The notes beneath the pieces are model-generated. The model searched no databases. It saw only the letters and a list, made by a program, of their open reading frames with translations, and was not told the origin of the DNA. Positions 5,881 to 14,792 of a stretch of DNA of 64,000 nucleotides are shown in pieces; within the stretch, counting starts at the first letter, position 1; each line of letters opens with the position of its first letter. Source of the stretch: an uncultured Candidatus Saccharibacteria bacterium. GTDB taxonomy: Bacteria; Patescibacteriota; Minisyncoccia; Phycocordibacterales; Zambryskibacteraceae. The position numbers were made by a program, and so were the translations under genes. The stretch covers positions 11,452 through 75,451 of the forward strand of contig CAYHDI010000002.1 of assembly GCA_964355645.1 (NCBI GenBank). The letters run 5' to 3'.

Positions 5881-8223
5881 GTGTATAATAAGGCAATGAT
5901 TAAGGATTATGTACGGGCAGCCAATTATTTGAGTGCCATACAGATTTATTTGTGGAGTAATTTTTTGTTAGAAAAACCTCTTAGTAGTGATGATATCAAA
6001 TCAAGACTTTTGGGTCATTGGGGCACTTGTCCGGGAATTAACTTTGTTTATGCACATTTAAACGACCTCATCATTAGGCACAAACTCGATATGATGTTCG
6101 TGCTCGGTCCGGGGCATGGTTTCCCAGCTCTCCAAGCCAATTTATTCTTAGAGAAAACTCTCGGCCAATATTATCCCGAAGCCACTCAAACAGAAAACGG
6201 TATTGCCTACATGGCGAAAAATTTCAGCTGGCCATACGGATTCCCGAGCCATTCGAATCCTGGAGCGCCCGGAGTGATTCTTGAGGGTGGAGAACTCGGG
6301 TATTCGCTCTCAACGGCCTGGGGTACGGTTTTAGACAATCCGAATCTCATCACAACATGTCTAGTTGGAGACGGTGAAGCTGAGACCGGACCTCTGGCCA
6401 CTTCATGGCATTTAAATAAATTTATCAATCCGAAAACCGATGGAGCCGTTCTTCCTATTCTTCATTTGAATGGCTACAAGATTTCTGGTCCCACGATTTT
6501 CGGTCGAATGAATAATGAAGAGTTGAAAAGTTTGTTCTATGGGTACGGCTATGAACCAATCATAGTAGAGGGGAATGATGATGAACTTTATGAACGCATG
6601 CCAATCGCTTTGGAAACTTGCTTAGGGCAAATTAAAAAACTTCAACAAGAAGGCAAGGCAGAGAAAGATTCCTTCGCTCGGTTCCCAATGATTATTCTTC
6701 ATACGAAGAAAGGTTGGACCGGAGTGAAAGAATCGAGAGGTCGAAAAATCGAAGATAACTGTCTTTCTCATCAAGTTGTGTGTTCACATGTGAAGTCTGA
6801 TGCCGAAGAATTGAAATCCGTTGAAGCTTGGTTTCGTTCATACAAATTCGAAGAATTGTTTGATAAAGAAAAAGGCTTTTCCAAGGACATTACCGACCTC
6901 ATTCCTCCACTAGAACTGGCGATGGGGAACAACAAGCATGCTTTCGGTTTGAAATATTTGGGCCAACCTCTCGAGCTTCCTTCGGCCGAAAGTTTGATGG
7001 AAGACGCTTCCATTCCGGGCACCATAGGTTCAAGCAGTATGATTCGCATGGCCCTTTTCCTCAAGGAAGTGTTTCAAAAAAACCAAGCAAACAAAAATTT
7101 CCGCCTAATGTCTCCGGACGAAACTTATTCAAACAAACTTCAGGAAGTATTCAAAGAAACTGCTCGAGCATTCGACGGTCCTACAGAGGCTTGGGATATG
7201 GATTTGTCCCCAGACGGGCGAGTGATGGAAATGCTTTCTGAACATTCGCTTCAAGGTTTGGCCCAAGGTTATATTTTGACTGGGCGACATGCTGTCTTCG
7301 CTTCTTATGAAGCTTTCGTGCAAGTAGTCTCAAGCATGGCTGATCAATATGCGAAGTTCCTGCGCGTCGCTCGCGAAACTCCTTGGAGAGGCGACATTCC
7401 TTCTTTCAATTATATTTTAACTTCGTCGGGTTGGAGGCAAGAACACAATGGCTTCTCTCATCAAAACCCAGGGTTCATTGATACCATGCTTCAGAAACAT
7501 GGATGCTTCGTGCGAGTATTTTTCCCACCAGACGGCAATACCGCGCTTTCTGTACTCAAACAATGTTTAGAATCCAAGAACGAAATAAATTTGATTGTGG
7601 CTGGGAAAACTCTCGAACCACGTTGGCTTACACCAGAATTGGTGAAAAAAGAATTAGAAACAGGAATTATGATTTGGGGCTTCGCGAGCGACGAGAATCC
7701 AGATTTGATTTTCTCTGCAGCTGGTGAATATCTGACCAAGGAAGCACTCGCAGCCATGATGATTGTTCGGAAACATTTACCGAAAATTAAATTGCGCTTT
7801 GTGAGTATTTTGGAAATTTCGGCCATCGGTCTCGGCAATTCTGCTTGCAAAATTCCTCTTCAAACTTTCAATGATTATTTCGAGAAAGACAAACCGGTCA
7901 TATTCAATTTTCACGGCTATCCGGAAACTCTCAAACAAGTTCTATTTGACGAACAAGACGGAACGAGTCGTTTCTATGTCCACGGCTACACGGAGAACGG
8001 TTCGACCACCACACCATTCGATCTTCATCTAAGGAACAAAACCAGTCGCTACGACCTCGCCATGGAGGCTTTCAAAATCCTGTCTGAGAAAAATCTTATT
8101 TCTACAGAAGAAGCTCAACAATTAACCGAAGAATATCAAAAGAAAATCTCCGAGCATCATGAATATATAATTCTGCACGGTGTTGACCCAGAAGAAATTA
8201 CCAATTGGCAATGGTCGAGATAA
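5881..8223 (+). CDS. xfp: xylulose-5-phosphate/fructose-6-phosphate phosphoketolase
   Basis: At 780 aa it carries the motifs HWGTCPGINFVYAHLN, LGPGHG and GYSLS, which are typical of phosphoketolase. Confidence 0.85.
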   Translation: MYNKAMIKDYVRAANYLSAIQIYLWSNFLLEKPLSSDDIKSRLLGHWGTCPGINFVYAHLNDLIIRHKLDMMFVLGPGHGFPALQANLFLEKTLGQYYPEATQTENGIAYMAKNFSWPYGFPSHSNPGAPGVILEGGELGYSLSTAWGTVLDNPNLITTCLVGDGEAETGPLATSWHLNKFINPKTDGAVLPILHLNGYKISGPTIFGRMNNEELKSLFYGYGYEPIIVEGNDDELYERMPIALETCLGQIKKLQQEGKAEKDSFARFPMIILHTKKGWTGVKESRGRKIEDNCLSHQVVCSHVKSDAEELKSVEAWFRSYKFEELFDKEKGFSKDITDLIPPLELAMGNNKHAFGLKYLGQPLELPSAESLMEDASIPGTIGSSSMIRMALFLKEVFQKNQANKNFRLMSPDETYSNKLQEVFKETARAFDGPTEAWDMDLSPDGRVMEMLSEHSLQGLAQGYILTGRHAVFASYEAFVQVVSSMADQYAKFLRVARETPWRGDIPSFNYILTSSGWRQEHNGFSHQNPGFIDTMLQKHGCFVRVFFPPDGNTALSVLKQCLESKNEINLIVAGKTLEPRWLTPELVKKELETGIMIWGFASDENPDLIFSAAGEYLTKEALAAMMIVRKHLPKIKLRFVSILEISAIGLGNSACKIPLQTFNDYFEKDKPVIFNFHGYPETLKQVLFDEQDGTSRFYVHGYTENGSTTTPFDLHLRNKTSRYDLAMEAFKILSEKNLISTEEAQQLTEEYQKKISEHHEYIILHGVDPEEITNWQWSR

Positions 8224-8227
8224 ATAT

Positions 8228-9211
8228 ATGAAAATTTTAACTGTTAATGTAGGAAGTGAATCGAAGAAATACGCTCTGTTTGGAGACGACAAGGAAATTT
8301 GGAATGTGCATATTGAAGAACGAGAGGGGGGTTTAGAAGAAGGCAAACTGTCCGAGCAATTTGATTCAATTGTTTTTAGAATTGTTGCCCCGGGAACGTA
8401 TTTCAGACAACACAGAGTCATAGACGCAGAATTTTTGAATCAATTAAATTTGGCTCGACCGAAGGCCCCACTTCATATAGATAGAACTTTGGCAGAGATT
8501 AAACTCTTCCAAACGAAATTTCCAAATACCAAGATGGTTGGGATTTCTGATTCAGCATATCACTCCACCCTTCCGGATTATGCCCGACTTTATGCTTTGC
8601 CTACGGAGGATGCGAAAACTTTGGACATAGAACATTTCGGCTATCACGGCATTGCTCTTTCTTCAGTGGTGGAAAAGCTAAAAGCCCAAAACAATTTGCC
8701 CGAAAATATTATTATTTGTCACCTCGGCGGAGGTTCGAGCATTACTGCAGTGAAAAACGGCGCAAGCATTGATACTTCAATGGGCTTCACTCCGCTTTCT
8801 GGTTTGACCATGGCCACGAGGGTAGGGGAAATTGATCCGGGAGCTCTCGTTTATCTTTCTGAAGTGAAAAATTTGCATGGGGAAAAATTCGAAGAATATT
8901 TGGCCAATCAATGTGGTTTCCTCGGCTTCGCTGGCACTCCAAGTATGAAGCAACTCCTGGCCCAAGAAGCCACAGATGAAAAGTCGGCCATGGTCATAAA
9001 GATGTTTGTCTATCAAGTTCAAAAATATATTGGAGCTTATACAGTTGCTCTCGGCGGTCTCGATTTACTTGTTTTCTCTGGAGGAATCGGCGAACCATCA
9101 GAACCCATTCGTACAAAAATTCTCGCAGGTCTTGGCATGTTAGCCAAAAATATCTTGGTTGTGCCTGCAGATGAAGCCAAGGAGCTGGTGAGGCTGTCAA
9201 AAAATTTATAA
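8228..9211 (+). CDS. ackA: acetate kinase (short)
   Basis: It begins MKILTVNVGSESKKY and continues ...GYHGIA...HLGGGSSITAVKNGASIDTSMGFTPLSGLTMATRVGEIDPGAL, with the acetate/propionate kinase motifs. The start was chosen at the ATG at 8228 rather than the upstream in-frame M, which overlaps xfp. Confidence 0.75.
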   Translation: MKILTVNVGSESKKYALFGDDKEIWNVHIEEREGGLEEGKLSEQFDSIVFRIVAPGTYFRQHRVIDAEFLNQLNLARPKAPLHIDRTLAEIKLFQTKFPNTKMVGISDSAYHSTLPDYARLYALPTEDAKTLDIEHFGYHGIALSSVVEKLKAQNNLPENIIICHLGGGSSITAVKNGASIDTSMGFTPLSGLTMATRVGEIDPGALVYLSEVKNLHGEKFEEYLANQCGFLGFAGTPSMKQLLAQEATDEKSAMVIKMFVYQVQKYIGAYTVALGGLDLLVFSGGIGEPSEPIRTKILAGLGMLAKNILVVPADEAKELVRLSKNL

Positions 9212-9213
9212 AA

Positions 9214-9240
9214 CCTAGCAAGAACGGTTCTTGCTAGGTA
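9214..9240. terminator. perfect 13-bp-arm palindrome acctagcaagaac-g-gttcttgctaggt, copy 1 of a 3-copy motif family
   Basis: It lies 3 bp after the ackA stop. There is no U-tract after it. Confidence 0.45.
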
Positions 9241-9309
9241 TATATCATTCCAACATTCTATAGAACATTGGAATGTATATTCTAGGATTTTGCAAAAGAC
9301 TTAATTTGT

Positions 9310-9382
9310 GCGCGATGCAGGACTTGAACCTACAACATCCTCAACGTCAATGAGGCGCTCTACCAATTGAGCTAATCGCGCA
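9310..9382 (-). tRNA. tRNA-Val (anticodon GAC)
   Basis: The reverse complement folds as a cloverleaf with anticodon loop ttGACgt. Confidence 0.75.
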
Positions 9383-9411
9383 ATAAATCTACTTTATACT
9401 AAAATTTAAAT

Positions 9412-9502
9412 TGGCGGAAGCGGTGAGATTTGAACTCACGAGACCCTTTCGAGCCTGCCAGTTTTCGAAACTGGTGCCTTCAACCACTCAGCCACGCTTC
9501 CG
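9412..9502 (-). tRNA. tRNA-Ser (anticodon CGA), CCA encoded
   Basis: The reverse complement is cggaagcgtggctgagtggttgaagg...ttCGAaa... with a long variable arm; the T-arm is gttcaaatc. Confidence 0.75.
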
Positions 9503-9554
9503 TAGGGCGAACTATAGCATTTTTCTTAAAAAATGTTAATATAAGCTTTGTTTT

Positions 9555-9640
9555 AAGGCCTCCCGACCCCGATTTTAATCGAGGGTCGAGGATCCTCGAT
9601 TCACGACTCGAAAGAGTCGGAATCGGGACTATCGTCTGCA
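9555..9640 (+). repeat. left direct repeat of the GIY-YIG cassette (hairpin-rich; ends with a partial copy of the tRNA-Glu 5' end)
   Basis: Its sequence tcccgaccccgattttaatcgagggtcgaggatcctcgatt...aatcgggactatcgtctg is about 80% identical to 9906-9992. Confidence 0.55.
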
Positions 9641-9653
9641 CAATACTTTCTGA

Positions 9654-9896
9654 ATGTTTTATATTTATATTCTCCAATCACTAACAGATAACTCCTACTA
9701 TGTGGGTTGTACAGAAAATACATCCAGAAGAATTTCTGAACACAATTCAGGAAAAGTGAGAAGCACAAAGACACGCCAACCATGGTCATTGCGATATACA
9801 GAGAAATATAATACATTATCAGAAGCTCGAAGCCGTGAAAATCAGATTAAACGCTGGAAAAGTCGAGCTGCTATTGAAAGATTGTTAAATAAGTAA
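9654..9896 (+). CDS. GIY-YIG nuclease family protein (80 aa, UPF0213-like)
   Basis: YIYILQSLTDNSYYVGCTENTSRRISEHNSGK...RENQIKRWKSR carries the GIY-YIG motifs, including the conserved Arg and the Glu. Confidence 0.75.
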   Translation: MFYIYILQSLTDNSYYVGCTENTSRRISEHNSGKVRSTKTRQPWSLRYTEKYNTLSEARSRENQIKRWKSRAAIERLLNK

Positions 9897-9905
9897 TAAC
9901 ATCAC

Positions 9906-9992
9906 GTAAGGTCCCGACCTCGACTTCAGTCGGGTCGAGGACCCGCGATTTTGTAACAACTTCGTTTAACAAAATCGGGGCCCTATCGTCTA
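9906..9992 (+). repeat. right direct repeat of the GIY-YIG cassette, running into the authentic tRNA-Glu 5' end
   Basis: Its sequence gtcccgacctcgacttcagtcgggtcgaggacccgcgatt...aatcggggccctatcgtcta matches the left repeat in the same orientation. Confidence 0.55.
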
Positions 9993-10050
9993 TCGGTTAG
10001 GACACATCCTTTTCAAGGATGGAAGCAGAGTTCGACTCTCTGTAGGGTCA
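9979..10050 (+). tRNA. tRNA-Glu (anticodon TTC)
   Basis: ggccctatcgtctatcggttaggacacatccttTTCaaggatg...gttcgactctctgtagggtca has a 7-bp acceptor stem with one G-U pair. Confidence 0.75.
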
Positions 10051-10056
10051 CAAATT

Positions 10057-10314
10057 ATGAGTTTATTCAAAGAAAGAGTTTTAAAAGTGGTCAGGGGGAT
10101 ACCAAGGGGTCGAACACTTTCATACGGAGATGTGGCTAAACTTGCCGGAAACCCTGGTGCAAGTAGGGCAGTAGGAACAATTATGAAAAACAATCACGAC
10201 AAGTCAGTTCCGTGCCATAGAGTTATAAAATCAAATGGGGAAGTCGGAGAATACAATAACGGAGGACCAAAGATGAAACGGGCTCTACTCAAAAAAGAGG
10301 GCGTAGATATATAA
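10057..10314 (+). CDS. methylated-DNA-protein-cysteine methyltransferase DNA-binding-domain protein (MGMT/Ogt C-terminal domain only, 85 aa)
   Basis: ...GRTLSYGDVAKLAGNPGASRAVGTIMKNNHDKSVPCHRVIKSNGEVG... carries the PCHRV active-site motif. Confidence 0.7.
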   Translation: MSLFKERVLKVVRGIPRGRTLSYGDVAKLAGNPGASRAVGTIMKNNHDKSVPCHRVIKSNGEVGEYNNGGPKMKRALLKKEGVDI

Positions 10315-11108
10315 TGTTCTACACAATGTTCAGAAAACTTTTCTCAACTTTATTCTTTGTACTACTTCTCGCGGGAGCGGGGGTTTATTTTTATAATCAG
10401 CAACCTTGCGTTCAACCGATTGGATTTAGGATTGGGACCCTCGACAGTCGGTTTGGATTGAGTCAGGTGGAGTTTAAGCAGATTGCTATTCAAGCCGAAG
10501 AAATTTGGAGCAAAGATTTGGGTAAACCATTATTCAAATACGATCCAAATGGGTCGCTGGCGGTGAATTTGATTTATGATTCAAGGCAGGCAACCGCGGA
10601 CAAGAATGCGAATATCATCTCAGACATAAATCAAACGACCGAATCCGCTGATGCGGTTCGTACCCAATTTCTCGCCCTTGAATTAAATTACAAAGAAAGT
10701 CTTGCAGATTACAACGCGCTTCTTTCAGAGCGAAAGGATTTTCAGGCGATTGAAGAGAAAAGATTGGAAGTCAACGCTTTGGCCGAGCAAATCAATGCGT
10801 TGGTAAAAAAATATAATTATTTGGTTAGTGCGGTGAACACAAATATAAATACGGTGAACCAGTCGGCGGGCAAAGAATTCGAAGAAGGGGAGTATGTTTA
10901 TGATTCGAACGGCAAGAGAATAAATATTTATGAATTTAAAACTCGATCGGAACTTATTCGAGTGCTAGCTCACGAATTTGGCCATGCGCTCAATATGAAT
11001 CACAACAATAATCCAAAATCGATTATGTATTATTTGAATCAGAGCTCAAATGAAGTCCCAACCGCAGAAGATACGAACGCCTTGAAAACAATTTGTAGAG
11101 TGAAATAA
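10314..11108 (+). CDS. membrane-anchored zinc metalloprotease (HExxHxxxxxH, matrixin-like)
   Basis: It has an N-terminal TM segment and the C-terminal motif LAHEFGHALNMNHNNN. Confidence 0.55.
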   Translation: MFYTMFRKLFSTLFFVLLLAGAGVYFYNQQPCVQPIGFRIGTLDSRFGLSQVEFKQIAIQAEEIWSKDLGKPLFKYDPNGSLAVNLIYDSRQATADKNANIISDINQTTESADAVRTQFLALELNYKESLADYNALLSERKDFQAIEEKRLEVNALAEQINALVKKYNYLVSAVNTNINTVNQSAGKEFEEGEYVYDSNGKRINIYEFKTRSELIRVLAHEFGHALNMNHNNNPKSIMYYLNQSSNEVPTAEDTNALKTICRVK

Positions 11109-11222
11109 AACCCTTGCTCCATCGGCATACAAGTGGACAAAGGCAGTGTTTTGTGCTAAGGTGCCCTCAGATCATGATGTACGCGGATTCCCCGCACAAA
11201 CCTGCTCCCGAGGTACCAACTC

Positions 11223-11801
11223 ATGCGCTCCTTTACCCTCGTTGTACTCCTGGCTATCCTGCTGGCCCCGTTGGGCCTGATTCAGGCCCAGAACACGTGC
11301 GGTATCTGTCCGCCCAAGGACACCACTGCCCTAGCCCTCAACGCCTTCAAGGCGAAGATGGACAAGACGGACAGGAGTCAGAATGCTCGCATCGCGAGCC
11401 TCCAGGTCTCCCGTGTCCAGATGCAGAAGAGCATCGAAGTCCTGTCCGGCAAGGTCCTCGACCTCAACGCGAGGCCTACGACCGATACGTCGGTCATGAA
11501 CCAGCTTACTTGGAATTCGGCCGAACTCGCTCGGCAGAAGGTCGAACTCTCCAAGGTCGAGAACGAGATCTCTGGGCTCGGGCGTCAGCTAGCCGAAGCA
11601 AGGGCAAAGGCTCTTGAACAGGCGAACAAGGATACCAAGAAGAAGACAAGCGGTCTGTCGACGGGCGACAAGTGGCTAATCGGCGGCTCAGCCGTCGTCG
11701 TGACTGGAGGACTGGTGTATCTCGCTGTCCAGAAATTGGGCAGGTCGGAGACTCACACCAGCTCCTCCAGCTCCTCCTGCTCCGGCAGCAATTGCCGATA
11801 G
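11223..11801 (+). CDS. secreted coiled-coil protein with C-terminal TM and Ser-rich tail, encoded in a roughly 60% GC block (likely foreign)
   Basis: It has a signal peptide (MRSFTLVVLLAILLAPLGLIQAQ). GC content jumps sharply relative to both flanks. A GC-rich terminator hairpin follows directly. Confidence 0.35.
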   Translation: MRSFTLVVLLAILLAPLGLIQAQNTCGICPPKDTTALALNAFKAKMDKTDRSQNARIASLQVSRVQMQKSIEVLSGKVLDLNARPTTDTSVMNQLTWNSAELARQKVELSKVENEISGLGRQLAEARAKALEQANKDTKKKTSGLSTGDKWLIGGSAVVVTGGLVYLAVQKLGRSETHTSSSSSSCSGSNCR

Positions 11802-11806
11802 CGCAC

Positions 11807-11840
11807 CCGGGCCTCGCAGAACATGCGAGGCCCTTTTGTT
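11807..11840 (+). terminator. rho-independent terminator
   Basis: The hairpin gcctcgcagaacatgcgaggc is followed by ccttttgttttt. Confidence 0.55.
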
Positions 11841-11867
11841 TTTATTATTTATAGTGAGCCTGTCGAA

Positions 11868-12827
11868 CTATTTTCCAGCGTGCAAGTACAAATAAATATC
11901 TTCGAGAGCCTTCACCGCGTCGCCGGCAGCGATGTTGTTTTGATGATAAAGTCCATCTGTGCAATCTCCAGCAGCCCAGAGACCTTCGACTTCAGATACT
12001 TGAGTTTTCGGATTAACCGGGATTTGTTTGTATTCGTTTAATTTAATTAAATTTTCTACAAATGAAGTGGATGGGATAAGTCCAATTTCAACAAATATGC
12101 CGGTGACGGGCAATTCAACTTTTTCTTTTTTTTCATTCTCATAAACAATAGATGAGACAAAGTTTGTTCCTTTAATTTCTACAGGCGTAGCATTCTTTGT
12201 AAGCTTCATATTCGGATGAGAGAGGACTTTTTCTACTGTGGATGGATCGGCCTTAACTACCTCACTTCTGTTGAGTAGGGTTACAGATCTTGCATAAGCC
12301 AAGAGTTGGGCGGCAGATTCGAATCCTGCATTTCCGCTTCCTATGACCACGACATCTTGTCCGGCGAAGAGAGGGCCGTCGCATGAGGCACAATATGTGA
12401 TACCTTTGTTTTCAAATTCTTTGGCTCCAGGGATGTCTAGTTTTCTACGAGTGCTCCCAGTGGCCACAAACACAGTTTTGGTTTCGTATCTTCCTTCTTT
12501 GGTAGTGACAGAGAAATTGTCACTGTTCTTTTCGATTTTCTGTACCCATTCGTTTAAATGAATATCTACCACATCGCTCGCCACGGCTCGAAGATGATTT
12601 TCTAAAGCTTTGCCCAGATCTGCTCCAGAAATATTCAAAGTGCCAACCCAGTTTTCTACCCCCATGGATTCTACTGATTGCCCCCCAATAGATTCTGCGA
12701 TGAATAGGGTTTTCAATCTTTTGCGCGCAGCATATATACCAGCAGAAACCCCGGCTGGGCCCCCTCCGATGATAGTCAAGTCGTATTGCATAAAGCACAG
12801 AATACCAGAAAATTTTTTTATATACAA
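11868..12827 (-). CDS. trxB: thioredoxin-disulfide reductase-like FAD/NAD(P) oxidoreductase
   Basis: It has the GGGPAG dinucleotide motif, a redox CxxC (CASCDG), and a second Rossmann motif GSGNAG. The likely start is the internal Met at 12788. Confidence 0.7.
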   Translation of the reverse strand: MYIKKFSGILCFMQYDLTIIGGGPAGVSAGIYAARKRLKTLFIAESIGGQSVESMGVENWVGTLNISGADLGKALENHLRAVASDVVDIHLNEWVQKIEKNSDNFSVTTKEGRYETKTVFVATGSTRRKLDIPGAKEFENKGITYCASCDGPLFAGQDVVVIGSGNAGFESAAQLLAYARSVTLLNRSEVVKADPSTVEKVLSHPNMKLTKNATPVEIKGTNFVSSIVYENEKKEKVELPVTGIFVEIGLIPSTSFVENLIKLNEYKQIPVNPKTQVSEVEGLWAAGDCTDGLYHQNNIAAGDAVKALEDIYLYLHAGK

Positions 12828-14303: not shown

Positions 14304-14516
14304 TTAGACTGGTTCGCTGTCGTCTTCCGGCCAATCATACTTACATCTTGGGCAGAGTGGGGTCGAATCCGTGGGGTCCAGTTTGCTGACTGGAAACGGA
14401 TTTCCACATTCACCACAAATGGCCGGTCCTTCTAGTTCGAACTTGAAGTCTACTGCGCAGTCGTCTGCCGTTCCTTCTTCGAGATAATCAGGGGATTCTT
14501 CATAGTCGTCCGACAT
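14304..14516 (-). CDS. highly acidic zinc-ribbon mini-protein (70 aa)
   Basis: MSDDYEESPDYLEEGTADD...ICGECGNPF...LCPRCKYDWPEDDSEPV has two CxxC pairs. There is a strong RBS (aaggagatacaaATG). A long, roughly 150-200-nt structured leader lies downstream of a TTGACT-17-TAGTAT promoter at about 14700. Confidence 0.4.
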   Translation of the reverse strand: MSDDYEESPDYLEEGTADDCAVDFKFELEGPAICGECGNPFPVSKLDPTDSTPLCPRCKYDWPEDDSEPV

Positions 14517-14679
14517 TTGTATCTCCTTTGAAGGTTTAACTTTAAAGGAGTTATCGCATCCGCTTATTCCTGAGGGAAGGGTGAAGGAAGCGAAACCTTA
14601 CTGGCCAATGTGTCTTGATTACCCGTACAGACACTTTGGTGACTTTCGTCGTTCAGGTTGCTCTAGACTTATACTAGCA

Positions 14680-14712
14680 CGGTTCAATATGAAAGTCAAG
14701 CATTTTATCCAC
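14680..14712 (-). promoter_or_regulatory. promoter candidate (reverse strand: TTGACTttcatattgaaccgtgcTAGTAT) driving a long leader and the zinc-ribbon gene
   Basis: Read on the reverse complement of 14680-14712. Confidence 0.35.
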
Positions 14713-14792
14713 TTGTAAGAAAAGGCAGATATGTTAGTATACAGGGTATATACGGCTTCGGCCCTCCCCGCAAGGGGTTAATATACAAAAGC

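What the first reader, a model, noticed from the sequence alone, without database searches (positions are those of the whole stretch)
9555..10050. GIY-YIG nuclease cassette flanked by roughly 85-bp direct repeats that copy the tRNA-Glu 5' end
The 80-aa GIY-YIG gene lies between two about 80%-identical, hairpin-rich repeats (9555-9640 and 9906-9992). The right repeat runs into the genuine tRNA-Glu (9979-10050). The left repeat ends with a degenerate copy of the first roughly 14 nt of that tRNA: aatcgggactatcgtct versus aatcggggccctatcgtct. This looks like an insertion or duplication event targeting the region immediately 5' of a tRNA gene, within a tRNA cluster of Val, Ser and Glu.
Basis: seen in the sequence. 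Interest (0 to 1): 0.55.

Follow-up and report, generated by a model that had tools for sequence, protein, structure and literature searches.

The report
Selfish nuclease cassette splitting tRNA-Glu gene
An 80-amino-acid GIY-YIG nuclease gene, bracketed by two copies of a palindromic double-hairpin repeat, sits inside what used to be a tRNA-Glu gene of a Patescibacteria (CPR) bacterium, with an intact replacement tRNA-Glu just downstream; the same layout recurs at dozens of other tRNA genes across bacterial phyla, and I found no published description of it.

Summary
An intact 80-aa GIY-YIG ORF (9654-9896) is flanked by two copies of a ~68-nt double-hairpin palindrome (9561-9628 and 9912-9980). 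The right copy abuts tRNA-Glu(UUC).

The interpretation needs correcting. Three related genomes lack the cassette. In them, tRNA-Glu starts exactly where the window has GGCC (9557), after a conserved 53-56-nt spacer. So the old tRNA-Glu gene was split: decayed remnants lie at 9557-9560 and 9629-9653, and an intact copy lies 422 nt downstream.

This is a family trait. In 79 loci encoding relatives of this nuclease, 44 have a co-oriented tRNA 5' end within -50 to +99 nt of the ORF stop. About 35 of the 85 loci examined also carry an upstream duplicate of that tRNA's 5' part, usually interrupted by GC-rich hairpins.

The double-hairpin element is dispersed in CPR metagenomes (132 copies in 120 stretches), mostly without an ORF. 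Many ORF-less copies lie beside duplicated 5' gene ends. Some copies carry the ORF inside hairpin 1.

The protein is UPF0213/SLX1-like and under purifying selection.

Best reading: a selfish, homing-type GIY-YIG and palindrome cassette that regenerates its target. The mechanism is inferred. I rate it a new variant of known kinds.

The parts
9502..9556 (.). Ancestral intergenic spacer between tRNA-Ser(cga) (-) and the original tRNA-Glu start; presumably holds the divergent promoters.
   Evidence: Aligns along its full length with the 53-56-nt Ser/Glu spacers of the cassette-free loci L226, L227 and L228. A promoter-like site for tRNA-Ser lies on the minus strand at 9539-9511.
9557..9560 (+). 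GGCC: remnant of nt 1-4 of the original tRNA-Glu gene (pseudo-tRNA, piece a).
   Evidence: Sits at exactly the position where tRNA-Glu starts (GGCCCTATCG...) in L226, L227 and L228 after the conserved spacer.
9561..9628 (.). Left double-hairpin element (DHE-L): hairpin 1 at 9561-9592, hairpin 2 at 9593-9628. Frame: TCCCGA...TCGAGGA|TCCTCGA...TCGGGA.
   Evidence: Matches the consensus of 88 metagenomic copies. Hairpin 2 is conserved at the same position in L003, L011 and L015. Absent from the empty sites.
9629..9653 (+). Pseudo-tRNA-Glu, piece b: CTATCGTCT (= nt 5-13), then a decayed D/anticodon-arm remnant that runs up to the ATG.
   Evidence: Local alignment to tRNA-Glu nt 1-45 gives p about 0.005 for the composite with GGCC. 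Sister loci keep clearer versions: L001 has 22 + 16 nt at 100% identity ending at anticodon-loop position 38.
9654..9896 (+). 80-aa GIY-YIG nuclease gene of UPF0213/SLX1-like type (catalytic domain only).
   Evidence: Pfam PF01541, E=3.4e-17. PDB sequence hits 1ywl and 1zg2 (UPF0213), then SLX1. AlphaFold2 pLDDT 94; Foldseek finds 1zg2 and SLX1 at TM 0.64-0.70. Y5, Y16, G18, R26 and E62 are invariant. dN/dS is 0.05-0.2.
9860..10056 (+). 'Right module': the last ~12 codons of the ORF, a 15-nt spacer, DHE-R, tRNA-Glu and 5 nt beyond. This block has a different history from the ORF body.
   Evidence: 96% identical to L101, a cassette at tRNA-Glu(CUC), over 193 nt. The ORF body shows only ~50% nucleotide identity to L101 by visual estimate of the alignment, with no significant BLAST match. 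The ORF body is closest to L003, L001 and L011 at 72-76%. A promoter-like TTGAAA-17-TAACAT lies at 9874-9902.
9912..9980 (.). Right double-hairpin element (DHE-R): hairpin 1 at 9912-9941, hairpin 2 at 9942-9980. Its last two G are G1 and G2 of tRNA-Glu.
   Evidence: Conserved at the same position in L001, L003, L014, L043 and L101, with a compensatory G:C to A:T change in hairpin 2.
9979..10051 (+). Intact, regenerated tRNA-Glu(UUC).
   Evidence: ARAGORN and Rfam tRNA at 54 bits. It lies 422 nt downstream of the ancestral start. Its anticodon and T stems resemble L101's tRNA-Glu(CUC) more than the tRNA-Glu(UUC) of relatives.
9412..9501 (-). tRNA-Ser(cga): the conserved left neighbour that anchors the comparison with the empty sites.

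Best explanation
The locus is a composite selfish cassette lodged in a tRNA-Glu(UUC) gene of a Minisyncoccia (Patescibacteria/CPR) genome.

Layout, left to right: the conserved Ser/Glu spacer; nt 1-4 of the old tRNA-Glu; a double-hairpin palindromic element (DHE-L); decayed remains of old tRNA-Glu nt 5 to ~38; an intact gene for an 80-aa, catalytic-domain-only GIY-YIG nuclease (UPF0213/SLX1-like); a second double-hairpin element (DHE-R); and a complete replacement tRNA-Glu.

Shown:
- The cassette is absent from three relatives.
- The same '5' pseudo-tRNA - ORF - intact tRNA' layout recurs at many different tRNAs in many phyla.
- The DHE is a dispersed DNA palindrome. Copies without an ORF also sit beside duplicated 5' ends of the adjacent tRNA or protein gene.
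- In some loci the ORF lies in the loop of DHE hairpin 1.
- The modules have mosaic histories.

Inferred mechanism:
- The nuclease nicks or cuts DNA at hairpin or loop-forming sites: tRNA-gene loops and the DHE itself. This is probably structure-specific, as for SLX1, because the protein has no DNA-binding domain.
- The break is repaired by recombination with a cassette-bearing copy. That copy could be a donor allele, or a small circle excised by recombination between the direct repeats.
- Repair copies in the ORF and DHE together with a portable 5' segment of the target gene. An intact gene is thereby rebuilt downstream, and the resident 5' segment is stranded upstream as a pseudogene.
- The cassette is probably transcribed from the old tRNA promoter, perhaps also from a promoter-like site in the ORF's 3' end. 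The tRNA would then be processed out of that transcript.
For: **Empty sites.** L227 and L228 have tRNA-Ser(-) - 53 nt - tRNA-Glu(+) - M10 peptidase. L226 has the same unit inverted. None has a GIY-YIG ORF or a DHE. The spacer aligns with window 9502-9556, and window GGCC aligns with tRNA nt 1-4.

**Sister cassettes.** L001 reads tRNA-Glu 1-22, DHE, 23-38, then AA-ATG. L011, L003, L015, L023 and L146 have the DHE at position 11/12.

**Family-wide pattern.**
- 47 of 85 loci have a co-oriented tRNA or tmRNA starting from -46 to +86 nt of the ORF stop.
- 44 co-oriented tRNA 5' ends fall in the -50 to +99 bin, against 0-1 per bin further downstream. Overall 109 tRNAs are co-oriented and 7 opposite.
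- About 35 loci carry an upstream duplicate of the same tRNA's 5' part, up to 55 nt at 100% identity.
- At least 14 tRNA species plus tmRNA are targets.
- Tandem arrays and truncated copies occur (L077, L064, L065, L013).

**DHE.**
- 132 copies in 120 metagenome stretches, and 0 in viral contigs.
- The frame is conserved while the inner stems are hypervariable yet paired.
- It is two-fold symmetric, with no strand bias in stability.
- ORF-less copies lie next to 5' duplicates of tRNA-Thr, -Ile and -Arg, and of topA, aminoacyl-tRNA synthetase and other genes. The differences between the duplicates are mostly synonymous or conservative.
- The ORF lies inside hairpin 1, bracketed by 15-22-nt inverted repeats, in L017, L020, L021, L030, L032, L044/45 and L126.
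- 11 of the 16 GIY-YIG ORFs on DHE-bearing contigs lie within 400 nt of a DHE.

**Protein.** UPF0213/SLX1-like, with catalytic residues kept and dN/dS of 0.05-0.2.

**Mosaicism.** The right module is 96% identical to L101, whereas the ORF body is only ~50% identical to L101 by visual estimate.
Against: - No activity, cleavage site or transfer event has been observed. Everything about mechanism is inferred from anatomy.
- An intact target (the regenerated tRNA) persists next to the nuclease gene. Classical homing endonucleases avoid this by disrupting their own site.
- The 80-aa protein has no DNA-binding domain that could give sequence specificity.
- Most DHE copies (122 of 132) are not next to a GIY-YIG gene. 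The link could therefore be a shared insertion preference rather than mobilisation.
- dS between sister cassettes is saturated. The Glu cassette is thus old and largely vertically inherited in this clade. It may be domesticated rather than actively mobile.
- In the window itself the pseudo-tRNA is short and only modestly significant.
- How the 5' duplication first arises at a new target is not explained.
Confidence: 0.72

Rival explanations
1. Two unrelated parasites happen to share a site. The double-hairpin element would be an independent MITE/REP-like repeat mobilised by some other enzyme, or a host structural repeat, that prefers tRNA flanks and 5' gene ends. The GIY-YIG ORF would be a separate free-standing homing endonuclease gene that also likes tRNA genes. 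Their juxtaposition would not be functional.
For: 122 of 132 DHE copies have no GIY-YIG ORF within 400 nt. ORF-less DHEs make the same flank duplications without any ORF. Some GIY-YIG cassettes have no recognisable hairpin: 19 of 83 loci are unclassified. L011 and L146 have no right-hand DHE.
Against: The only two DHE copies in 64 kb flank the ORF; if two copies fell at random, the chance would be about 1e-5 by my estimate. Each copy is conserved at its own position across sister cassettes whose synonymous sites are saturated. The ORF lies inside hairpin 1 in about 10 loci. 11 of 16 GIY-YIG ORFs on DHE contigs are adjacent to a DHE. Hairpin box type loosely tracks protein similarity: 48 of 64 nearest neighbours share the type. 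No other transposase candidate was seen next to DHEs.
Confidence: 0.15
2. A domesticated host arrangement. The GIY-YIG protein would have a host function, for example DNA repair as proposed for UPF0213/YhbQ-type proteins. The hairpins would be leader, processing or stability signals of a tRNA-Glu operon. The repeats would come from an old local tandem duplication, with no ongoing mobility.
For: Strong purifying selection on the ORF, and saturated dS between sister cassettes at the same tRNA-Ser/tRNA-Glu locus (window, L001, L011), indicate long vertical retention. The ORF is co-oriented with and abuts the tRNA, so co-transcription is likely.
Against: Relatives lack the cassette at the same site. 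At least 14 different tRNAs, tmRNA and protein genes are targets, each with its own duplicated 5' part. Tandem arrays and truncated copies occur. Modules are mosaic. DHE stability shows no strand bias, and its symmetry is at the DNA level. There is no Rfam family and no terminator-like T-tract.
Confidence: 0.08
3. An att-site scar of an integrase-driven island. The partial tRNA copy would be attL or attR, left by a tRNA-targeting integrative element.
For: tRNA genes are classic integration sites. Large serine recombinase genes lie beside the tRNA-Ser/tRNA-Glu cluster in L011, L226 and L227.
Against: The duplicated part is the 5' part of the tRNA rather than the 3' part (by my knowledge, integrase att sites usually duplicate the 3' part). 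The two copies are only ~420 nt apart, with a single 80-aa ORF between them. There is no integrase in the window cassette or in most of the 85 loci. L227 has the recombinase gene but no cassette.
Confidence: 0.03

Closest known systems
Free-standing GIY-YIG homing endonuclease genes of T-even phages (Seg family, e.g. SegB in the T4 tRNA gene cluster) - from my own knowledge
   Same: A GIY-YIG nuclease gene that is not in an intron, sits among tRNA genes, varies in presence or absence between relatives, and is expected to spread by break repair with co-conversion of flanks.
   Different: Seg proteins are over 200 aa and have DNA-binding domains; this one is 80 aa, catalytic domain only, and of SLX1/UPF0213 type (I-TevI is only a weak fold match). 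Seg genes lie between genes and do not split and regenerate a tRNA gene. They have no palindromic repeats. This element is chromosomal in CPR and other bacteria, and no DHE occurs in viral contigs.
Mobile GIY-YIG ORF with a hybrid atp6 gene, and double-hairpin elements (DHEs), in Allomyces mitochondrial DNA (Paquin, Laforest and Lang 1994 and 2000; the 2000 paper is cited in PMC2800124; details from my own knowledge)
   Same: A GIY-YIG ORF arrives with a replacement piece of the host gene and leaves the resident piece as a pseudogene. Short mobile elements made of two adjacent hairpins are associated with it. No classical target-site duplication is seen.
   Different: The Allomyces case is mitochondrial and replaces the 3' end of a protein gene. 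Here the host is bacterial, the 5' parts of tRNA (and some protein) genes are replaced, and a different GIY-YIG subfamily is involved. Sequence relatedness of the hairpin elements was not tested.
REP/BIME palindromes and their RAYT (IS200/IS605-like HUH) transposases - from my own knowledge
   Same: Many dispersed short palindromic hairpin repeats per genome or community, plus a small gene flanked by copies of the repeat. Symmetry is at the DNA level.
   Different: The associated enzyme here is a GIY-YIG nuclease, not an HUH transposase. The inner stems are hypervariable. Insertion sites are loops of tRNA genes and 5' gene ends, with regeneration of the target.
GIY-YIG ORFs in non-intron insertion sequences of CPR rRNA genes (J Bacteriol 2024, PMC11270868)
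   Same: The same bacterial group. GIY-YIG ORFs lie in insertions that are neither group I nor group II introns. In that paper most rRNA insertions of all types sit at the tops or bases of stem-loops of a structured-RNA gene.
   Different: That paper concerns rRNA, reports no target duplication or palindromic element, and concludes that GIY-YIG seems to lie outside spread by homing. Whether those ORFs belong to the same UPF0213-like clade was not tested here.
Integrase-driven genomic islands at tRNA genes - from my own knowledge
   Same: They target tRNA genes and keep the tRNA functional by carrying a replacement segment. They leave a partial tRNA direct repeat.
   Different: Islands duplicate the 3' part and use tyrosine or serine recombinases. 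Here the 5' part is duplicated, the insert is ~420 nt, and the only enzyme encoded is a GIY-YIG nuclease.
UPF0213 proteins (PDB 1ywl EF2693, 1zg2 BH0048) and the SLX1 structure-specific endonuclease
   Same: Sequence and fold match: E=1e-7 and 1.5e-6 to UPF0213; SLX1 nuclease domain at TM 0.64-0.70. SLX1's preference for branched and hairpin DNA (title of PDB entry 6seh, and my own knowledge) fits the hairpin-rich context.
   Different: UPF0213 proteins have no assigned function. SLX1 needs SLX4 and a RING domain that is absent here. No activity was tested.

Membership tests
GIY-YIG nuclease superfamily (Pfam PF01541) | A GIY...YIG beta-hairpin motif plus conserved Arg and Glu in an alpha/beta fold of about 80-100 aa | tested here: met
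   Pfam E=3.4e-17 over residues 1-71. Y5, Y16, G18, R26 and E62 are invariant in 12 relatives. The AlphaFold2 model has pLDDT 94 with beta-beta-alpha-beta-alpha-alpha topology.
UPF0213 / SLX1-like subfamily of GIY-YIG | Closer in sequence and fold to UPF0213 and the SLX1 nuclease domain than to the I-TevI or UvrC domains | tested here: met
   phmmer against PDB: 1ywl E=1.3e-7, 1zg2 E=1.5e-6, SLX1 E=0.01-0.1. Foldseek: 1zg2 E=8e-5; SLX1 TM 0.64-0.70; I-TevI TM 0.49; UvrC E above 1.
Homing endonuclease gene (free-standing) | Presence or absence polymorphism at an otherwise conserved site | tested here: met
   L226, L227 and L228 have the same Ser-spacer-Glu locus without the cassette.
Homing endonuclease gene (free-standing) | Signs of exchange or co-conversion of flanking sequence | tested here: met
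   The right module is 96% identical to L101, against ~50% (visual estimate) for the ORF body. Flank duplicates differ mainly at synonymous sites.
Homing endonuclease gene (free-standing) | Site-specific double-strand cleavage of the cassette-free allele, and a DNA-binding module that confers specificity | tested here: not met
   The protein is only the 80-aa catalytic domain, with no extra domain. Cleavage itself cannot be tested with these tools.
Homing endonuclease gene (free-standing) | Insertion destroys the recognition site, so the carrier is immune | tested here: inconclusive
   The upstream tRNA copy is disrupted by hairpins, but an intact tRNA-Glu copy persists 15 nt plus one DHE downstream of the ORF.
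Group I or group II intron-encoded endonuclease in a tRNA gene | An intron ribozyme around the ORF, and exons that join into one tRNA | tested here: not met
   Rfam scan at E<=10 finds only the three tRNAs. A complete tRNA follows the ORF rather than a 3' exon.
Integrase-type tRNA-targeting island | A tyrosine or serine recombinase gene inside the element, and duplication of the tRNA 3' part | tested here: not met
   The only ORF with a family match between the repeats is the GIY-YIG gene. The duplicated part is the 5' part.
MITE / REP-like palindromic repeat | Many dispersed copies with conserved terminal inverted repeats | tested here: met
The conserved frame is TCCCGAT...ATCGAGGATCCTCGAT...ATCGGGA.
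MITE / REP-like palindromic repeat | A short fixed-length target-site duplication (MITE), or an associated HUH RAYT gene (REP) | tested here: not met
   No fixed short duplication is present. The apparent CTATCGT duplication is an internal repeat of tRNA-Glu itself. The flanks instead carry 17-55-nt gene 5' duplicates. The associated gene is GIY-YIG.
Mitochondrial double-hairpin elements (Allomyces DHE) | Two adjacent hairpins, mobility without flank duplication typical of transposons, and association with a mobile endonuclease ORF | tested here: inconclusive
   The architecture matches. Sequence homology to the fungal elements was not tested because no fungal sequences were available. The comparison rests on PMC2800124 and my own knowledge.
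Intrinsic terminator or tRNA leader processing signal | A GC-rich hairpin followed by a U-tract on the transcribed strand, or strand-specific RNA structure | tested here: not met
   One weak terminator-like hit inside DHE-R, against 0.9 expected. Sense and antisense stability are equal: -0.29 +/- 2.0 kcal/mol, n=21, p=0.88.

The most novel reading that the evidence does not exclude
UPF0213-type minimal GIY-YIG nucleases would be the mobilising enzymes of a previously unrecognised class of bacterial mobile DNA. These would be double-hairpin palindromes, with or without the nuclease ORF in a hairpin loop. They would invade loop-forming sites of structured-RNA genes (tRNA, tmRNA, perhaps rRNA) and the 5' ends of essential genes. 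They would survive by carrying a portable replacement for the segment they displace. As a result they would continually overwrite host tRNA genes with foreign copies. That would give a large 'function unknown' protein family a testable role, and it would reveal a structure-guided rather than sequence-guided targeting mode.
Probability: 0.4. Interest if true: 0.85.

Novelty: new variant of a known kind. Interest (0 to 1): 0.7.

Why it matters
1. It gives a concrete, testable biological role to a clade of a large family of small GIY-YIG proteins that has no assigned function. The family (UPF0213) has 8,487 clusters at 50% identity at E<=1e-3, of which 824 reach 1e-10.

2. It shows a way for a selfish element to occupy essential, highly conserved genes without an intron or an integrase. 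The element brings a spare 5' part of the gene and strands the old one.

3. It implies that tRNA genes in CPR and other bacteria are repeatedly replaced by cassette-borne copies. The window's tRNA-Glu(UUC) resembles a tRNA-Glu(CUC) cassette copy more than the orthologous tRNA-Glu(UUC) of relatives. This matters for tRNA phylogeny, for anticodon switching and for annotating pseudo-tRNAs.

4. It identifies an abundant double-hairpin palindrome in CPR genomes. That palindrome explains many short 'orphan' N-terminal ORF fragments and intergenic hairpins.

5. A minimal 80-aa nuclease that may recognise DNA structure could be of practical interest.

Tried and rejected
- Known RNA families: Rfam at E<=10 over 8000-12000 gave only the three tRNAs. 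This rejects a ribozyme, an intron or a known leader.
- Terminator or processing hairpin: no U-tract and no strand bias.
- Genome-wide repeat within the window: only two copies in 64 kb.
- Phage origin: 0 DHE copies and only 9 distant GIY-YIG relatives in 2.9 million viral contigs.
- Empty site through the upstream neighbour: acetate kinase relatives L214-L216 have no tRNA cluster beside ackA. The downstream M10 peptidase neighbour succeeded instead.
- An apparent 7-bp target-site duplication (CTATCGT) around the left element in L011 and L003 turned out to be tRNA-Glu's own internal repeat, positions 5-11 and 12-17.
- A simple long target-site duplication from staggered nicks fits poorly. The element often sits inside the left copy rather than at its edge. 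The duplications start at the gene's first nucleotide or start codon. The copies differ mainly at synonymous sites.
- The search for related loci with the 12-sequence alignment A2 failed for lack of a conserved stretch. It was repeated with 7 sequences.
- Literature: eight searches found no description of tRNA-linked UPF0213 cassettes or of this palindrome. The library lacks most subscription journals, so absence is not proof.
- The antisense 71-aa ORF at 9601-9816 and other small overlapping ORFs are mechanical; none was pursued.
Full report
**1. What is in the sequence**

The window carries tRNA-Val(gac) at 9308-9381 (-), tRNA-Ser(cga) at 9412-9501 (-) and tRNA-Glu(ttc) at 9979-10051 (+). 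An 80-aa ORF lies at 9654-9896 (+). The ORF matches Pfam GIY-YIG PF01541 with E=3.4e-17.

Region 9555-9640 aligns with 9906-9992 at 63 identical positions in 95 columns. The score is 78, against 23.5 +/- 6.5 for shuffles. A strict pattern for the shared part hits only these two places in 64 kb, with 0 expected. BLAST finds no third copy, and no second GIY-YIG-like ORF exists in the window.

Identity is about 80% only over the first ~45 nt. The inner part of the second hairpin differs completely but still pairs. Each copy folds into two adjacent hairpins: -42.6 and -36.0 kcal/mol, z about -5.

The frame is TCCCGA...TCGAGGA|TCC(T/C)CGA...TCGGGA. That is four copies of one ~8-nt box in alternating orientation around a central GGAYCC. 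I call this the double-hairpin element (DHE). DHE-L is 9561-9628 and DHE-R is 9912-9980. The last two G of DHE-R are G1 and G2 of tRNA-Glu. Rfam finds nothing here except the tRNAs.

**2. The cassette sits inside a former tRNA-Glu gene**

The closest homologues of the ORF (72-75% identity) come from four other gene neighbourhoods. All lie directly upstream of a tRNA-Glu, either UUC or CUC.

L001 makes the anatomy plain. Upstream of the ATG it reads GGCCCCATCGTCTATCGGTTAG-[DHE]-GACACAAGCTTTTCAA-AA-ATG. That is tRNA-Glu nt 1-22 and 23-38 at 100% identity, interrupted by a DHE and ending at the 3' edge of the anticodon loop. The ORF follows, then a second DHE, then the complete tRNA-Glu.

L011, L003, L015, L023 and L146 have the DHE between nt 11 and 12 of the pseudo-tRNA. 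An apparent 7-bp duplication around it is only tRNA-Glu's internal repeat CTATCGT/CTATCG.

In the window the pseudo-tRNA is more decayed. It consists of GGCC (9557-9560), then DHE-L, then CTATCGTCT (nt 5-13), then a weak anticodon-arm remnant up to the ATG. Taken alone this is only modestly significant (p about 0.005-0.03).

The decisive evidence is comparative. Homologues of the downstream M10 peptidase gene (85, 71 and 67% identity) led to three orthologous loci.
- L227 and L228 read tRNA-Ser(cga)(-) - 53 nt - tRNA-Glu(ttc)(+) - M10.
- L226 has the same unit inverted, with a 56-nt spacer.
- None has a GIY-YIG ORF or a DHE.
- Their spacer aligns base for base with window 9502-9556. The window's GGCC aligns with nt 1-4 of their tRNA-Glu.

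So the ancestral tRNA-Glu began at 9557, and the functional copy now begins at 9979, 422 nt downstream. The source organism belongs to Minisyncoccota/Minisyncoccia, judging from the names attached to close acetate kinase homologues.

**3. This is a property of the protein family, not of this locus**

A scan of one genome per species with a 7-sequence alignment returned 80 loci at 41-63% identity. They come from Patescibacteria, Ignavibacteria, Bacteroidota, Poribacteria, Omnitrophota and others.

- 47 of 85 loci have a co-oriented tRNA or tmRNA whose 5' end lies from -46 to +86 nt of the ORF stop. Often the stop codon lies inside the acceptor stem.
- Binned, 44 co-oriented tRNA 5' ends fall at -50 to +99, against 0-1 per 150-nt bin further downstream.
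- A second peak of 17 lies just upstream of the ORF.
- In total 109 tRNAs are co-oriented and 7 are opposite.
- Targets include Glu, Gln, Ala, Ser, Pro, Lys, Met, Thr, Tyr, Asp, Gly, Val, Cys, Phe and tmRNA.
- In about 35 loci the upstream flank repeats the 5' part of that very tRNA. The repeat runs from about nt -10 to +1 up to nt 20-38 or 48-65. It is often 100% identical: L012 55 nt, L037 and L067 39 nt, L080 38 nt.

The copy fused to the ORF is nearly always altered. An arm is interrupted or replaced by GC-rich hairpins bounded by TCC(C)G...C(G)GGA (L067, L071, L034, L057, L037/L080, L022, L050).

A mirror class has the intact tRNA upstream and a hairpin-modified partial copy downstream. 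It often forms tandem arrays that end in a truncated ORF (L025, L064, L065, L077, L013, L027).

**4. The double-hairpin element is a dispersed DNA palindrome linked to the nuclease**

It found none in 2.9 million viral contigs. The 120 stretches (786 kb) hold 132 copies. Of these, 10 lie within 400 nt of a GIY-YIG ORF and 17 within 150 nt of a tRNA.

So the element is common and mostly lacks an adjacent ORF. Four observations tie it to the nuclease all the same.

(a) Those contigs, selected only for having a DHE, contain 16 GIY-YIG ORFs. Eleven of them are next to a DHE.

(b) The only two DHEs in the 64-kb window flank the ORF.

(c) Each DHE is conserved at its own position in sister cassettes, although synonymous sites are saturated. 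Hairpin 2 of DHE-R shows a compensatory G:C to A:T change.

(d) In L017, L020, L021, L030, L032, L044/45 and L126 the ORF lies inside hairpin 1. It is bracketed by 15-22-nt inverted repeats that include the start and stop regions. ORF-less DHEs therefore look like the ORF-less form of the same element.

Other properties of the DHE:
- The frame is conserved, while 85 of 88 inner stems are distinct yet paired.
- The frame is two-fold symmetric; 49 of 132 copies match the strict pattern on both strands.
- Hairpin stability shows no bias towards the transcribed strand: -0.29 +/- 2.0 kcal/mol, n=21, p=0.88, with G-U pairs 18 versus 16. This favours a DNA-level role over an RNA-level role.
- Hairpin box type loosely follows protein similarity; 48 of 64 nearest neighbours share the type. 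This is weak support for cognate pairs.

**5. ORF-less elements make the same scar**

Examples at tRNA genes:
- L162: tRNA-Thr nt 1-16, then DHE, then nt 17-22 plus a remnant, then 57 nt, then the intact tRNA-Thr.
- L139 (Ile), L125 (Arg) and L117 (Thr) are analogous.

Examples at protein genes:
- The DHE follows a copy of the first 10-15 codons of the gene that restarts 11-12 nt after it. This holds for topA in L142 and aminoacyl-tRNA synthetases in L160 and L129, among others.
- Such protein-level flank duplicates were found in 30 of 167 orientation tests.
- ORF-bearing elements do the same in atpG (L017) and gatB (L030).

The paired copies differ mostly at synonymous or conservative positions; for example AGT versus TCT for Ser in topA. 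They therefore look like copies from different lineages (xenologues) rather than a local duplicate decaying.

In L158 an intact tRNA-Glu(CUC) lies inside hairpin 1 of a DHE. That DHE splits an outer tRNA-Glu at nt 22/23.

The general formula is [gene 1..x]-E-[x+1..b]-[gene ~1..N]. This is what Campbell-type recombination would produce, given a small circle or donor allele that carries E plus a 5' gene segment. It is inference, not observation.

**6. Mosaic history in the window**

Window 9860-10056 covers the last ~12 codons of the ORF, a 15-nt spacer, DHE-R, tRNA-Glu and 5 nt beyond. It is 96% identical to L101, a cassette at tRNA-Glu(CUC). The rest of the ORF is only ~50% identical to L101 at the DNA level by my visual estimate of the alignment. 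It is closest to L003, L001 and L011 at 72-76%.

So the 'ORF-end - DHE-R - tRNA' block is exchanged as a module. The window's tRNA-Glu(UUC) shares its anticodon and T stems with that CUC copy rather than with the tRNA-Glu(UUC) of L226, L011, L001 and L014. A promoter-like TTGAAA-17-TAACAT lies at the start of the module; this is only a consensus match.

**7. The protein**

- PDB by sequence: UPF0213 proteins 1ywl (E=1.3e-7) and 1zg2 (E=1.5e-6), then SLX1.
- AlphaFold2: pLDDT 94.
- Foldseek: 1zg2, then SLX1 nuclease domains at TM 0.64-0.70 and rmsd 1.5-3.6 A. I-TevI and UvrC domains match much more weakly.
- The catalytic Tyr, Tyr, Gly, Arg and Glu residues are invariant.
- dN/dS is 0.05-0.2 among sister cassettes, so the protein is functional.
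- There is no DNA-binding domain.
- The family has 8,487 clusters at 50% identity at E<=1e-3, of which 824 reach 1e-10.

**8. How it most likely works**

Shown: the insertion relative to empty sites; the split pseudo-tRNA plus regenerated tRNA; the recurrence across tRNAs and phyla; the link between DHE and nuclease; the mosaicism; and purifying selection.

Inferred:
- The SLX1-like nuclease cuts DNA at hairpin or loop structures. This would explain why many different tRNA genes are hit at their D, anticodon or T loops. It fits the report that most insertions in CPR rRNA genes sit at the tops or bases of stem-loops (PMC11270868).
- Recombinational repair against a cassette-bearing template then installs the ORF and DHE together with a portable 5' segment. 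The gene is rebuilt and the resident 5' segment is stranded.
- Hairpins in the stranded copy would break up the direct repeat and any residual target.
- Expression would ride on the tRNA promoter in the conserved spacer.

Weak points:
- No activity data exist.
- An intact target persists beside the nuclease gene.
- It is unclear how the first duplication arises at a new target.
- The Glu cassette is old, so it could be partly domesticated.

**9. Comparison with known systems, and novelty**

The closest analogues each share part of the picture:
- phage free-standing GIY-YIG endonucleases in tRNA clusters (SegB);
- the Allomyces mitochondrial GIY-YIG ORF with a hybrid atp6 gene, and double-hairpin elements (Paquin et al., cited in PMC2800124);
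- REP/RAYT;
- integrase islands at tRNA genes;
- GIY-YIG ORFs in CPR rRNA insertions.

None combines a catalytic-domain-only UPF0213 nuclease, a dispersed double-hairpin palindrome, and regeneration of the 5' part of tRNA genes in bacteria. Eight full-text searches found no description, but the library is incomplete. I rate it a new variant of known kinds, with interest 0.7.

Noticed in passing
window 10057-10314: An 85-aa gene with only the DNA-binding domain of O6-methylguanine methyltransferase (Pfam PF01035, E=1e-29) lies between tRNA-Glu and the M10 peptidase gene, overlapping the latter's start by one base. In L227 and L228 tRNA-Glu is followed directly by the M10 gene, so this small gene is a second lineage-specific insertion at the same tRNA.
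   Followed up: partly
window 11100-11850: A GC-rich island (55-60% GC against 42% for the window) between the M10 peptidase and thioredoxin-reductase-like genes holds a 192-aa ORF (11223-11801) and several overlapping mechanical ORFs. Relatives have a 145-178-aa gene at this place.
   Followed up: no
L226 680-2215; L227 779-2314; L011 968-2545: Large serine recombinase genes (511-525 aa; Resolvase/Recombinase/Zn_ribbon_recom) lie directly beside the tRNA-Ser(cga)/tRNA-Glu(ttc) pair in three related genomes, and the tRNA trio is inverted in L226. This tRNA cluster is a hotspot for a second, unrelated kind of mobile element.
   Followed up: no
L027 850-1480 and 1755-1815: In a Poribacteria chromosome, at least six tandem tRNA-Pro-like units (107-nt period) have their anticodon arm replaced by the hairpin TCCGAT-AG-ATCGGA. 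They precede a GIY-YIG ORF, and another partial unit follows it. This looks like amplification of the hairpin-modified tRNA copy.
   Followed up: partly
L158 about 14480-14760 (minus strand): An intact tRNA-Glu(CUC) lies inside the loop of hairpin 1 of a double-hairpin element. That element splits an outer tRNA-Glu at nt 22/23. The hairpin loop can therefore carry a tRNA as cargo instead of the nuclease ORF.
   Followed up: partly
L077 1020-1980: In a Prolixibacteraceae genome there is a tandem array with a 359-nt period: tRNA-Pro(cgg), terminator-like spacer, GIY-YIG ORF. From the second unit on, the tRNA D arm is replaced by CCCCGCCATCGGCGGGG. The ORF stop codon lies in the tRNA acceptor/nt 8-10 region. 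The last ORF is truncated.
   Followed up: partly
L119 6855-6922; L149 5206-5261; L132 3694-3764; L097 12493-12557: Some double-hairpin elements lie deep inside long open reading frames (up to 4.7 kb), not at gene ends. This is reminiscent of palindromic elements inserted in-frame in Rickettsia genes. Reading frame and gene identity were not checked.
   Followed up: no
window 9979-10051 versus L226, L011, L001, L014: The window's tRNA-Glu(UUC) has anticodon-stem and T-stem sequences like the tRNA-Glu(CUC) of L101. It differs from L101 at about four positions, including the anticodon. It is unlike the tRNA-Glu(UUC) shared by relatives. This suggests replacement of the tRNA gene by a cassette-borne copy, with an anticodon switch.
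   Followed up: partly
L013 2430-2900: A more distant GIY-YIG ORF (42% identity) sits just downstream of a tmRNA gene. It is followed by a ~100-nt direct repeat of its own upstream terminator-like hairpin plus its first 17 codons, that is, a truncated second unit.
   Followed up: no
window 5881-9211: Phosphoketolase (780 aa) and acetate kinase genes lie immediately upstream of the tRNA cluster. This gene pair is conserved in relatives (L214-L216), but what follows acetate kinase differs in each, so the region downstream of it is rearranged between close relatives.
   Followed up: partly
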